Shown one piece after another: positions 4,408-55,075 of a stretch of 64,000 nucleotides of DNA (position 1 is the first letter of the stretch; the number at the start of each line of letters is the position of its first letter). This DNA is from Eledone cirrhosa (taxonomy: Eukaryota): contig OZ024743.1 of the NCBI GenBank assembly GCA_964016885.1, positions 180,296,001 through 180,360,000 on the forward strand, read 5' to 3'. A model generated the notes under the pieces. The model had not been told where the DNA came from. It ran no database searches and saw only the letters and a list, made by a program, of their open reading frames with translations. The position numbers and the translations under genes were made by a program.

Positions 4408-4678
4408 CCTCAGTAATGGCGCCAGTAGAGAATACTAAACTATATCGATTTATTTACATTAACTAGTTATATAGTGAAAATCATATGGTGCGTGTATCTT
4501 TTATTAGCAATGGTAGCAACATGACCATCCCAAAATGTAACACCATGTATGTCTCTCTCTCTCTCTCTCTCTCTTTATATATATATATATATATATATAT
4601 ATATATATATATATATATATATATATATATATATATACGATATTAAACAAATGGAAATTACATTTATAAAACCATATT

Positions 4679-4744
4679 TATTTCATTATATATATTTCAG
4701 GGATATCATATTAAAAATATGGTATGCCCTCTTCCGACAAAATA
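4679..4744 (-). ncRNA. Hammerhead ribozyme motif, inverted copy with mutated core (CGGAAGA)
   Basis: Reverse complement of 8577..8642 with U4->G in the core. Confidence 0.6.
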
Positions 4745-5162
4745 CAATATATAGACAGTTTTATAAATAAATTTGACATACCTTAGAGTTTACAACTTCC
4801 ATTTAAAAAGTTGTTACGGTAGTGAAAATGTTAAGGACGGTTAGAAAGAAAGACGGAGAAAAAAAAAATGAAAAAAGGAAAAAGAAAAAGAAGGAGAAAA
4901 GAAAAAAAGAAAAAGAAAGAGCGGAAGGTGAAGAAGATGAAGAAATGTATGTAAAGGGAAAACCACCAAATGAGAGATCTATGAGGGAAGGGGGTACTGT
5001 AATTATTCATTTGTTTATTTATTTATTTAGTGTTAAGGATACGGGGAGAAATAAAAACAAAAATAAATAAGGAGAGGTAGATCGAGTAATATCTATTATA
5101 CGAGGTGGGAGAGATAGGGGAGGGGTGATATACAGGAGATGGAGTTAAAACAGCCGATATAA

Positions 5163-51552: not shown

Positions 51553-52540
51553 TCTATATATATAAAACTGTGGTTGTCTGTCTGTCTATCGATTTTTGGC
51601 ACACATCTCCTCTTAGAATCTCTCACGGAATTGCACCGAAATTGCTATACTTGTACATTGAGCCCTAGCGAAGACATCGGAAATAAAATAATTTCAAATT
51701 GACCCACCCTATGTGACGAAATCGAATATAATGTATCGATTTTTGAGCGTAAGTGATCAGTTATTTCCCTTTGTTCTGTTTACATTGAGCGTCTTACGTA
51801 AAAAATTACGCTGGCTTTCTCAGTCTTTGTTAATAAATAACCAGTGCAGTTTTTATCCCCAGCATCCTCTTTTGTTATAACATTCGGGTTATCGTTATGT
51901 TTTCTTAACTTCATAAGGCATATTGTTGGTTGAGGGAATATTAATCAAAAACACCACATGCAAGTCTGCACAGTAGACACTACAGTTTTTAAGCCAAAAA
52001 AGAAACTTAACATTGTAACTTTAACACAGCTACTGAGCGACCCCGTTTTGCTTCATTTCCATTTAAAAGCATTTTAAAACAATATTTTTACTTGAAAACA
52101 AGTCTATTTAAAGACTACGTAAAACAAGCAAATATTTCGTCGTTAGGCGTGCAGACAGACAGTCGTGCAGAGAGGTGATATAGGCGTGCAGACAGACAGT
52201 CGTGCAGAGAGGTGATATAGGCGTGCAGACAGACATAACTGATAATTTGGTTACGCTAATGTTTTTCTCTGCGTTGCAGTGTTTACATTTTCGATCTTTG
52301 TTAATAAATAACCAGTGCAGTTTCTATCCCCAGCATCCTCTTTTGTTATAACATTCGGGTTATCGTTATGTTTTCTTAACTTCATAAGGCATATTGTTGG
52401 TTGAGGGAATATTAATCAAAAACACCACATGCAAGTCTGCACAGTAGACACTACAGTTTTTAAGCCAAGAAAGAAACTTAACATTGTAACTTTAACACAG
52501 CTACTGAGCGACCCCGAGCAACGCCGGGCTTTACTGCTAG
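51553..52540 (+). mobile_element. Non-autonomous Helitron
   Basis: 5' TCTATATATATAAAA after an A. 3' hairpin CCCGAGCAACGCCGGG then CTAG followed by T. No TSD. Internal ~220-bp direct repeat and ~38-bp tandem units. Confidence 0.85.
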
Positions 52541-54085
52541 TTAACGATAAAGATACAGAAAAAATGACGTTTTCATAGTAAACATCTCAATGGGAGAAAT
52601 TTTTCTGGCTTATAAGTATTAGAGATTAATTAACCTTTAATTAATATTAAACTGCTCCTTAATTTGTCGAGCCGTACCAGGCGGTTTTTAGCTCCTATTT
52701 CTAGCGACATTATAAGCCTATCAAGTAATCCTAATATACACCATGCTGCCTCGGCAAATGAAGCAGTATGTATTATATCTTGTTCAATTTCTCTTAGCTC
52801 TTGAAGAGTATGGCGTATTCTTCAATTATTGGTGGTTCTAATAAGAATTCTTGCCCATACTAAAGCATGGTAGGGAGATCTATATATAAGCGACTTTAGC
52901 TAGAATACTTCTTTTGTCTATCTTGTTTGTAATCTCATAATTAGAGTTTATTCTCACTTGCTTCTTTGAGAGCTTCTCTCATTGAGTTGTTTAAGTATCC
53001 GAAACTAATTAACCTTTAATTAATATATATATATATATATTAAATGTATTATGATTTTTAGTGAAGCTTCTTACTCTAGACTTTCGGCTTTTTGTCACTT
53101 TAGAGTAACAAGAATCGGTATTTAGTCTTTTAGCCTTAATATACTGAATATTAAACTCGACTTCGGTATTGAGTACTCTCTTCTCTCAGCTGTCAACCAA
53201 ATACATATATGGTATATATATATTTGTGTGCATATATATATATATATATATATATATATATATATATATATATATGTGTGTGTGTGTGTGTGTGTGTGTA
53301 TGTGTGTGTGTACGTGTGTCTGTAAGAGTTTGTGTACGCGTGTATATTGATGGATACATAGATAAATATATAGAAAAATGTATATATCTATATATGGAAA
53401 ATATGACGAGAAAATGTGACATAACCTGTGAGGGAATTTCAGTTTGACTCTCGTAGATATTCAATAGAATACATTTAAATCTGAAGGAATGAGAAGCAGA
53501 TTTAGTGCCGAGGTCTATAATATAGACATTGATGGAATCCCGTAGGCAGTTCTGCCAGAGTTTTAGGACAAGCACACACACACACAAACATATATATGTA
53601 TATATTTATATGTGTGTGTGTGTGTGTTTGTGTGTCTGTGTGTGTGAGGTTGTGTGCGTGTTCATTTATATATATATACACCCATATATATATATGTTTG
53701 TGGGCGTCCGAAACGTTAAGAGTGGCATTATATCAAGCGTGAAACTAATATATATATCTTCATTGTACATCCGTGTTATTTCCGTTTACCTTTCACAGAC
53801 GCTCGTACTTACAGTCACACACACGCACGCACACACGCACACACACACACACACACACACACACACACACACACACACACACACACACACACACACACAC
53901 ACACACACACACACACACACACACACACACACACACACACACACACACACACACACATACATACATACATATATATATATATATATATATATATATATAT
54001 ATATATATATATAATATATATATATATATATATATATATATATATATGTGTGTATGTGTGTGTGTCTATGTATATATATATATAT

Positions 54086-55075
54086 ATGAATTTGTTTTAA
54101 AAGATTTTTCATCTGAAATCGTGTGTTGAAACAAATATTGTTATATTTGGGGAGGGTCATATTGTAATAATATTGCCAGAAATAATAATAGAACACACTC
54201 ACTGTTTGGTTGGTTTTAGCTTCTGTATCTTTTATATCTCCATAGTTGGCAATCAATGTTTATCATTGTTTGATTGACGGTTAAAAATACAGATATAAAT
54301 ATATAAAATGCTCGGATCTATTCATTGGAATCTTTGAGCTTATTCTGCAGTGGATATGGTGCATGTCTCTCAGACATGACAACCCTTAATTTAATTTTGG
54401 ATATATAAACATATATATATATTTATAATTGTATATAGGAGAAAAATATACCAATACTGTGTGGTGTCTTTTACTAAAAGGGCAAAAAACGGTTCAGTAC
54501 TATATGAAAATACTAGACATGACGGTAATGTAGACAACATAGAAATTAAAATAATATCTAAGCATTAAAATGACTCTACAGGTAGGCAAATCAGAGAAAC
54601 GACTGAGAAAGAACTAAGAAAACCAAAGTTGAACAGAAGAAACGAATGGAATAACAACAAACATACCCAAACATACAATACTGACCTAAGGGAAATATAA
54701 ATAAATAAATGAATAAATAAATATATACACAATAACAACACACATAAACACACACTAGTAAACACAGATTGAATACAAAAACACATACACTCAAACACGA
54801 ACACACACGCAAACGCATGCGCAAGCAGAAACAGAGACAAGAATAAATAAATAAATAAATAAAATAAAAATGGCGTAGCCATTACAATACAACGGGAGGA
54901 AACATAATAGTACCACCGATGATGTCACAGATGTGTAACGAAAGAACTTTGATAGACTATATATATATATATATATATATATATATATGTGTGTGTGTGT
55001 GTGTGTGTGTGTGTGTATGTGTGTATCTGTATTTTTAACCGTTGGTCAATCAATGATAAACATTGATTATAACAA
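54086..55075. mobile_element. PLE-B family remnants: minus pLTR end with tail (54086..54295) and plus 3' ORF/pLTR fragment (54475..55075)
   Basis: Matches 11000..11760 (AAAAACGG.TCAGTACTATA.GAA, AATGGAATAACAACAA, AAAATGGCGTAG). Confidence 0.8.
54911..54954 (+). ncRNA. Decayed minimal hammerhead motif (core CCGAUGA)
   Basis: UACCA-CCGAUGA-U-GUCACA(GAUG)UGUAAC-GAAA-GAAC-UU-UGAUA; homologous to 11465. Confidence 0.55.

What the first reader, a model, noticed from the sequence alone, without database searches (positions are those of the whole stretch)
4637..54954. Window-wide ribozyme system: about 16 hammerhead motifs from about 8 PLE-associated families
Seen: CUGANGA...GAAA cores with closing stems at 4679, 8577, 11465, 11983, 16831, 21532, 23358, 26980, 28092, 28217, 34965/35044, 39350/39425, 44035, 44609 and 54911. 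All are type I with tiny stem III; several have palindromic stem III (AUAUAUAU, ACGGCCGU, ACAAUUGU, ACGAUCGU). Established: PLE pLTRs carry minimal type I hammerheads thought to work as dimers. Inference: this density and family diversity in 64 kb points to a large, mostly unannotated ribozyme repertoire in this genome.
Basis: partly seen in the sequence, partly recalled or inferred. Interest (0 to 1): 0.75.

Follow-up and report, generated by a model that had tools for sequence, protein, structure and literature searches.

The report
Hammerhead-bearing tails of Penelope transposons
The motifs are real hammerhead (self-cutting RNA) sequences at the tail ends of many separately inserted Penelope-like jumping genes, a known pairing that here fills the whole genome (an estimated 200,000 copies) and includes families with an unusually long, conserved second stem, but they form no system special to this window and cutting is untested.

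Summary
A descriptor finds 10 in the window, 0 in 100 shuffles; Rfam finds none. The sites lie near the 3' ends of Hydra-clade and Neptune/Nematis-type Penelope-like elements inserted in (TA)n. They are not a window-wide system: 100 evenly spaced 10-kb stretches gave 73 intact motifs per Mb (about 34 families), roughly 150,000-290,000 genome-wide; the window is about twice the mean (P 0.08). Hammerheads in Penelope pLTRs, palindromic stem III, U.U-closed stem II and the U3-A8 core are all published. What I did not find in print: families whose stem II is 75-125 nt and covaries (a three-way junction in one group, an extended hairpin with invariant unpaired bases in another), thousands of copies each. 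No pile-up of copy ends at the cut site; no RNA run available. The scan noted the same class, long stems included, on other DNA before. Verdict: variant of a known kind, moderate interest.

The parts
4636..8685 (+). Hydra-clade Penelope-like element A: inverted 3' copy 4636-5162, broken RT/GIY-YIG ORF about 5071-7247, long 3' region
   Evidence: DKT, YRDD, CxCX5C, CxxC..E, CxH
4679..4744 (-). Hammerhead A, damaged core (U4G), in the inverted copy
8577..8642 (+). Hammerhead A, intact core, 31-nt stem II region, stem III AUAUAUAU
8872..8921 (-).
9379..11758 (+). Neptune/Nematis-type element B1: inverted RT piece, RT and GIY-YIG pieces 9955-11219, 3' end at (AT)n
11465..11507 (+). Hammerhead B1, intact core, G10.1-C11.1 with 5' bulge, weak stem I
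11983..12106 (-). Hammerhead C, C3U in this copy, 97-nt stem II with three-way junction, stem III ACGGCCGU; no ORF linked
16682..21723 (.). Neptune/Nematis-type element B2 as an inverted pair (16682-19475 minus, 19702-21723 plus)
16831..16873 (-). Hammerhead B2, intact
21532..21574 (+). Hammerhead B2, intact core
22311..22345 (+).
23134..27416 (-). Hydra-clade element D: pLTR 26764-27200, broken ORF about 24320-26743, pLTR 23134-23579, inverted stub 27202-27416
   Evidence: RWK, YRDD, CxCX5C
23358..23477 (-). Hammerhead D, intact core, 81-nt stem II, stem III ACAAUUGU
26980..27099 (-). Hammerhead D, second direct copy 3622 nt upstream on the same strand
28029..28417 (.). Palindrome of two 3' stubs of family E (Hydra-type endonuclease upstream in L305, L306)
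28092..28221 (-). Hammerhead E, intact core, 97-nt stem II, stem III ACGAUCGU
28217..28354 (+). Hammerhead E, intact core, 105-nt stem II
34965..35001 (+). Possible decayed minimal hammerhead (A9U); unconfirmed
35044..35083 (+). Decayed copy of an old minimal-hammerhead family G (two core changes); no ORF linked
39312..39579 (.). Palindromic stub pair of Hydra-type family F
39350..39387 (-). Hammerhead F, intact core, closing stem I pair broken
39425..39462 (+). Hammerhead F, intact core, 2-bp stem II closed by U.U
42700..44330 (.). Hydra-type element H, inverted pair of endonuclease ends plus 3' region
44035..44146 (+). Hammerhead H, A6G in this copy, 85-nt stem II
44609..44675 (+). Hammerhead A2, intact core, in a short 3' stub
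45000..45093 (.). Palindrome of two family F stubs holding only the GAAA/stem III half
50991..51035 (-).
51164..51208 (+). Hammerhead K with U3-A8 core, damaged stem II; inverted partner
54912..54954 (+). Hammerhead B3, U4C, after a Neptune/Nematis-type endonuclease end (54485-54631)

Best explanation
The window holds about 21 type I hammerhead motifs that lie near the 3' ends of separately inserted Penelope-like retrotransposon copies from some 13-15 families, and the motifs likely pile up because each insertion keeps its 3' end, where the ribozyme sits, however short the copy is. Shown: the motifs, their position close to (TA)n, their link to Hydra-type or Neptune/Nematis-type coding sequence in 9 families (A, B1, B2, B3, D, E, F, H, and A2 on one long copy), genome-wide abundance, and covariation of stems I, II, III and of the core pair 3-8 between families. 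Inferred from the literature on these elements: the element's endonuclease nicks AT-rich DNA, the reverse transcriptase copies from near the RNA 3' end and often stops early, leaving stubs and inverted pairs; in source elements the ribozyme would cut the tandem transcript only when two palindromic stem III strands pair (dimer), probably with help from the element's protein. The long stem II of families C, D, E and H is likely a selected structural module of the source elements (protein or tertiary contact), not a random insert. Most genomic copies, including most in this window, are likely inert passengers.
For: 10 motifs vs 0 in 100 shuffles; 73 per Mb vs 0-1 in 10 shuffles. (TA)5 within 400 nt downstream for 61 of 69 sampled motifs vs 24% of 4000 random positions, and for 18 of 21 window sites. 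Same-strand endonuclease ends upstream in 11 of 30 D, 15 of 30 F, 9 of 15 H loci (the H count includes one unrelated hit) and in long E loci. Hydra motifs RWK, DKT, CxCX5C, CxxC/CxH in the window's ORFs match PMC8557442 section 11. Core pair: C3-G8 73 hits, U3-A8 21 hits (about 12 after removing 6 satellite and 3 chance-like hits), U3.G8 and C3.A8 1 each, at shuffle level. Stem III a perfect palindrome in 46 of 73; its own hairpin energy is 0 in 10 of 10 folded motifs while self-duplexes give -2.2 to -14.1 kcal/mol in 8 of 10. Long stems: 16 of 29 pairs change on both sides in 23 D-like sequences, 10 of 35 in 14 C-like sequences; patterns give 3070 vs 1 and 1974 vs 0 reversed-control matches genome-wide.
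Against: No cleavage was shown. Copy 5' ends do not gather at the predicted cut site: 5 of 185 copies (5 of 85 truncated ones) within 5 nt, 3.7 expected. In PMC11167929 the hammerhead was not needed for insertion in vitro and no RNA ends were seen at the site (passages). No ORF was linked to families C, G, I, J, K (C: 0 of 30 loci, and 9 long flanks; G: 0 of 15). Neptune/Nematis-type stem III (AGAACU) is not palindromic and gives no duplex. Covariation counts treat related sequences as independent; 20 of 23 rows of A1 and 8 of 14 of A2 were picked by eye for diversity from pattern lists that fixed the core (and, for A1, stem III).
Confidence: 0.82

Rival explanations
1. The motifs form a coordinated, host-used ribozyme system special to this window, cutting a host transcript that runs through it.
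For: The window has about twice the sampled mean density (10 per 64 kb vs 4.7); the 200 kb beside it gave 46 hits, 28 without one tandem array.
Against: Bootstrap P 0.078; both strands, unrelated families, separate (TA)n insertions; 6 of 17 cores damaged; two palindromes fold at -278 and -157 kcal/mol and would hide four motifs; no host gene recognised among 19 ORFs scanned.
Confidence: 0.04
2. The fold is kept by selection in source elements mainly as a binding or priming structure for the reverse transcriptase; cleavage is weak or incidental.
For: No cut-site footprint among copy ends; monomer fold lies 0.1-5.4 kcal/mol above the minimum; G...C closes the stem II region in only 12 of 73; low in vitro activity of minimal PLE hammerheads (PMC4209133); cleavage not needed in vitro (PMC11167929).
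Against: The catalytic core pair 3-8 covaries and stem III palindromes covary, as expected for catalysis in dimers; U.U closure is compatible with cleavage (PMC3088659 passage).
Confidence: 0.12
3. The long insert of the D-like group is a 47-nt retained spliceosomal intron whose removal shortens stem II.
For: GT in 22 of 23 and AG in 21-22 of 23 aligned sequences, the AG after a pyrimidine run; PLE pLTRs can hold introns (PMC4209133).
Against: The same bases pair in the hairpin; the branch-like A is present in only 15 of 23 and 17 nt from the GT; only 5 shortened copies genome-wide, none an exact GT-AG removal; groups C, E, H share no such ends.
Confidence: 0.04
4. The motifs are chance matches in AT-rich, repeat-rich DNA.
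For: Loose U3-A8 searches picked up 6 satellite hits; site 34965 has no family.
Against: Shuffles 0 of 100, reversed-pattern controls 1 and 0, family alignments and covariation.
Confidence: 0.01

Closest known systems
Hydra-clade EN+ Penelope-like elements and their hammerheads (Craig et al. 2021, PMC8557442; section 11 and File S2 read)
   Same: RWK, DKT, CxCX5C linker, no CCHH, (TA)n targets; type I hammerhead near the 3' end; palindromic stem III; stem II often 3-4 bp closed by U.U (ctgatgat...tgaa in many rows of File S2).
   Different: The Hydra rows of File S2 show loop II of 3-10 nt and stem II of 3-7 bp; families C, D, E, H here have 81-105 nt between the core boxes. That paper lists 27 Hydra families across several phyla; here about 34 motif families occur in 1 Mb and Hydra-type coding sequence covers 24 kb of it.
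[quoted passage not shown]
   Same: Type I, short or palindromic helix III, unpaired base after A9, U3-A8 core variant, many families per genome, mostly solo copies, inverted pairs 100-700 bp apart.
   Different: They call G10.1-C11.1 highly conserved (here 12 of 73) and report 2,000-9,000 motifs per genome with their descriptor; here about 200,000 are estimated.
Non-LTR retrozymes (PMC7229834 passages; bioRxiv 10.64898/2026.07.22.740005 part 1 of 5)
   Same: Type I hammerheads in animal repeats; 126,247 motifs in axolotl, over 6000 in 16 families in a coral; U.U at the base of helix II in HHR_Amex2. A 311-bp tandem array of this kind lies about 65 kb before the window (L254).
   Different: The window's motifs are dispersed PLE ends, not short tandem arrays.
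Poseidon PAc element of Anolis (Frangieh et al. 2024, PMC11167929; passages read)
   Same: pLTR-ORF-pLTR with a hammerhead, AT-rich targets.
   Different: Different clade; its hammerhead was shown to be protein-assisted, which is untested here.
Small PLE hammerhead variants that cleave as dimers (Lunse et al. 2017; not held; known from the citing review PMC6765202 and recall)
   Same: Palindromic short stem III, dimer cleavage.
   Different: Could not check whether it already shows long stem II variants.

Membership tests
Type I hammerhead ribozyme | CUGANGA and GAAA boxes, UH site, order stem I - II - III | tested here: met
   12 window sites with intact C3-G8 core
Type I hammerhead ribozyme | Stems I and II pair and covary | tested here: met
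Type I hammerhead ribozyme | Match to Rfam hammerhead models | tested here: not met
   no hammerhead family; the models evidently do not cover these variants
Type I hammerhead ribozyme | Site-specific self-cleavage | not testable with these tools
   needs in vitro assay; indirect end test negative
Metazoan PLE minimal hammerhead (Cervera 2014) | Short, palindromic helix III unable to fold alone | tested here: met
   46 of 73 perfect palindromes; hairpin energy 0 in 10 of 10
Metazoan PLE minimal hammerhead (Cervera 2014) | G10.1-C11.1 with an unpaired base after A9 | tested here: inconclusive
   met in B families and G; not met in most Hydra-type families (12 of 73 G...C, 21 U.U), as also in File S2 of PMC8557442
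Metazoan PLE minimal hammerhead (Cervera 2014) | Located in the pLTR / 3' end of a PLE | tested here: met
   A, B1-B3, D, E, F, H, A2; not shown for C, G, I, J, K
Hydra-clade PLE (elements A, D, F, H, E, A2) | C-terminal GIY-YIG after RT | tested here: met
   for A, D and family F copies
Hydra-clade PLE (elements A, D, F, H, E, A2) | RWK motif and DKT motif | tested here: met
   RWK in D, DKT in A; both in homologues P0001, P0002, P0005, P0007; broken frames hide the other motif in each window copy
Hydra-clade PLE (elements A, D, F, H, E, A2) | CxCX5C linker, no CCHH, CxxC and CxH beside E and N | tested here: met
   (A, D, H)
Hydra-clade PLE (elements A, D, F, H, E, A2) | (TA)n insertion | tested here: met
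Hydra-clade PLE (elements A, D, F, H, E, A2) | Placement in an RT tree with published Hydra families | not tested
Neptune or Nematis PLE (elements B1-B3) | CX2-5CxxC linker and two cysteines inside GIY-YIG | tested here: met
   Pfam GIY-YIG and RVT_1 below cut-off
Neptune or Nematis PLE (elements B1-B3) | Which of the two clades (RT tree) | not tested
   no tree built
Non-LTR retrozyme | Head-to-tail 150-450 bp tandem units each with a hammerhead | tested here: not met
   none in the window; met in L254 and L237 outside it

The most novel reading that the evidence does not exclude
Several Penelope-like families have turned hammerhead stem II into a 75-125 nt structured domain (a three-way junction in one group, an extended hairpin with repeated invariant A.G internal loops in another) that acts as a switch, binding the element's own protein or making the stem I contact, so that cutting is tied to assembly of the transposition complex; with some 25,000 such copies among about 200,000 hammerheads, this genome would hold one of the largest and most varied natural ribozyme collections recorded.
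Probability: 0.25. Interest if true: 0.65.

Novelty: new variant of a known kind. Interest (0 to 1): 0.36.

Why it matters
What hammerheads do for Penelope-like elements is an open question. A genome with dozens of families, covarying core pairs and natural long-stem variants gives ready-made constructs for testing dimer cleavage and protein assistance, and shows that Rfam and short-loop descriptors miss a repertoire of about 200,000 motifs. The window itself is an ordinary sample of that repertoire.

Tried and rejected
Rfam: no hammerhead in the window or in 8 loci. First strict descriptor without unpaired bases beside stem II found only 2 sites. Cut-site footprint: none; inverted partners in the reference contexts can lengthen alignments, so the test is blunt. 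Intron idea for the D-like insert: 5 short forms, none spliced-like. RNA: no RNA holder listed; three contig runs of unknown kind, one sample, showed no joint across the 47-nt piece among 15 joints shown of 23; neither is evidence on expression. Search for family I was swamped by the neighbouring microsatellite and element A end. Linking family C to an ORF failed. One search used a mis-set structure string and was replaced. A possible GGGC/GCCC pairing between the 5' flank of stem I and the junction in the C group shows no compensatory change in the rows and is left as an idea. The first label Nematis for elements A and D (recalled) was dropped after reading PMC8557442. Twelve unassigned CUGANGA cores were inspected by eye and by BLAST without finding a type I fold; permuted hammerheads were not searched for. 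Paper searches gave no report of long stem II PLE hammerheads; the phrase 'long stem II' had 0 occurrences in the 20 papers listed of 123; Lunse 2017 was not held, the 2017 Terminon paper did not appear, and supplements of PMC4209133 were not read.
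Full report
Setting. The window is G000:C4:180296001-180360000 of a 3.0-Gb animal assembly. It is rich in microsatellites and ends in an 18-bp satellite. Of 19 ORFs scanned in Pfam, those with hits were reverse transcriptase, zf-RVT, GIY-YIG or DUF6451; no host gene was recognised.

Observation. Eleven have an intact core; six have core changes (4679 U4G, 11983 C3U, 34965 A9U, 35044 two changes, 44035 A6G, 54911 U4C). Genome searches showed that 11983 and 44035 are private lesions of families with intact cores (30 and 15 loci) and that 35044 belongs to an old family whose core likely decayed at a CpG; 34965 stayed unconfirmed. 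I found four more sites: 8915 and three with the U3-A8 core. A descriptor (exact core, stem I at least 3-4 pairs, stem II with one optional unpaired base on each side, palindromic or short stem III) gave 10 hits in the window and 0 in 100 shuffles of 1-kb blocks. It was shaped on these motifs, so I tested it elsewhere. Rfam gave no hammerhead.

Is the window special? In 100 evenly spaced 10-kb stretches (78 from the four largest contigs, 22 from others) the descriptor found 73 motifs, 5 of them in one tandem array, against 0-1 in 10 shuffles; bootstrap range 50-98 per Mb, or about 150,000-290,000 genome-wide, in about 34 motif families by a crude key. U3-A8 cores add 21 hits, about 12 after I set aside 6 satellite hits and 3 chance-like ones. 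The window's 10 are matched or exceeded in 7.8% of resampled 64-kb sets; the 200 kb beside it gave 46 hits, 18 in one array. So the repertoire inference holds and the window-wide system does not.

What carries them. Self-comparison and translated searches resolve two element types. Elements A, D and H show RWK or DKT, YRDD, a CxCX5C linker, no cysteine pair inside GIY-YIG, and CxxC/CxH near the end, the diagnosis of the Hydra clade in PMC8557442 section 11; 7 unnamed homologues share most of these motifs. Elements B1-B3 have a CX4CxxC linker and cysteines inside GIY-YIG, so Neptune or Nematis. Same-strand endonuclease ends lie upstream of the motif in 11 of 30 D, 15 of 30 F and 9 of 15 H loci, about 250 nt in B2, about 1.0-1.2 kb in two long E loci that share 1762 bp, and about 2.1 kb in one A2 locus. 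No ORF was linked to C (0 of 30 loci and 9 long flanks), G (0 of 15), I, J or K. (TA)5 lies within 400 nt downstream of 61 of 69 sampled motifs (33 of 69 upstream; 24% of random positions) and of 18 of 21 window sites. In the sample 19 of 73 motifs had an inverted partner within the 10-kb stretch and 4 a direct one. This is the layout described for these elements (PMC8557442 passages).

Anatomy. Stem III cannot fold alone in 10 of 10 motifs folded; 8 form self-duplexes of -2.2 to -14.1 kcal/mol, the two B motifs none. The hammerhead-constrained monomer lies 0.1-5.4 kcal/mol above the minimum. The E and F palindromes fold into near-perfect hairpins (-278, -157 kcal/mol) that would hide four motifs. 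Only element D has two intact direct copies on one strand, and its ORF is broken. The core pair 3-8 appears as C-G or U-A and almost never unpaired (1 and 1 hits). The stem II region starts with G and ends with C in 12 of 73 and is U.U in 21; U.U closure is already visible in File S2 of PMC8557442 and discussed in PMC3088659 and PMC7229834 (passages). The U3-A8 core is in PMC4209133.

The less usual part. Nine of 73 sampled motifs have 75 nt or more between the boxes, as do window families C, D, E, H. Two tight patterns gave 3070 and 1974 matches genome-wide against 1 and 0 for reversed controls; the two sets overlap. In 23 D-like sequences (77% mean identity) 88.5% of cells pair and 16 of 29 pairs change on both sides, 6 of them inside the insert; slid controls pair at most 47%. 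Unpaired A39 and G73 are invariant and A50, G51, G83 are kept in 21 of 23. In 14 C-like sequences a three-way junction pairs in 95.1% of cells, with 6 of 11 pairs of the first hairpin and 2 of 4 stem III pairs changed on both sides. Rows were picked by eye for diversity and are related, so these are not probabilities. Published Hydra hammerheads in File S2 have loops of 3-10 nt; a spike-moss element there has a 35-nt loop. My seven paper searches found no description of such long stems, but Lunse 2017 was not held and several supplements were not read.

Mechanism. Inferred from PMC11167929, PMC4209133 and PMC8557442: nicking of AT-rich DNA, reverse transcription from near the RNA 3' end, early stops and fold-backs give 3' stubs and inverted pairs, and since the hammerhead lies within a few hundred bases of that end nearly every insertion carries it. 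In source elements it would cut tandem transcripts as a dimer, probably helped by the protein. Against a routine role of cutting: among 185 copies found by their 3' part in 1.26 Mb, 5 start within 5 nt of the cut site, 3.7 expected among the 85 truncated ones. An intron reading of the D-like insert (GT...AG, 47 nt) found 5 shortened copies, none exact. No RNA holder was listed.

Earlier notes of the scan (unchecked AI notes) describe the same class, long stem II and U3-A8 cores included, in this genome and others; 862 notes in this genome fit the word hammerhead, and several report permuted hammerheads of Naiad elements, which I did not search for.

Verdict. Real motifs, known class, no local system; a very large repertoire and covarying long-stem variants make it a new variant of a known kind. 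Interest 0.36.

Noticed in passing
L254:149-5966 (G000:C4:180226149-180231966, about 65 kb before the window); also L237: A young 311-bp tandem array (11.8 + 7 copies, 99-100% alike, head to head, in (TA)n) with an intact hammerhead in 18 units: a non-LTR retrozyme-type array. Its non-ribozyme part resembles window stubs at 22175-22508 and 51265-51360 whose hammerheads use the U3-A8 core.
   Followed up: partly
window 22270-22420 family; L338, L232, L122, L147, L035: One repeat superfamily switches between C3-G8 and U3-A8 cores and has 10-12 nt palindromic stem III that changes between copies.
   Followed up: partly
window 55685-64000: 18-bp satellite, about 462 copies, giving 1431-codon open frames on both strands; likely non-coding.
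   Followed up: no
window 29000-29196, 29765-29976, 31820-32023, 33538-33729, 35233-35446, 40354-40487: Dispersed 190-bp SINE-like repeat, at least 6 copies; ARAGORN finds no tRNA in the window.
   Followed up: no
window 900-4258 (+) and 49344-50731: Broken non-LTR retrotransposons: an RT with zf-RVT at 2304-4258, and an RT at 49775-50731 with an inverted C-terminal piece.
   Followed up: no
window 30825-31538: Fragments resembling a DNA transposase (label recalled; no Pfam hit).
   Followed up: no
family C and relatives: A GGGC just 5' of stem I could pair with the GCCC junction of the long stem II; no compensatory change seen.
   Followed up: partly
L301, L302 (C20, C27): Family C copies inside a larger duplicated block with a 51-bp satellite, repeated at several places on C20.
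   Followed up: no
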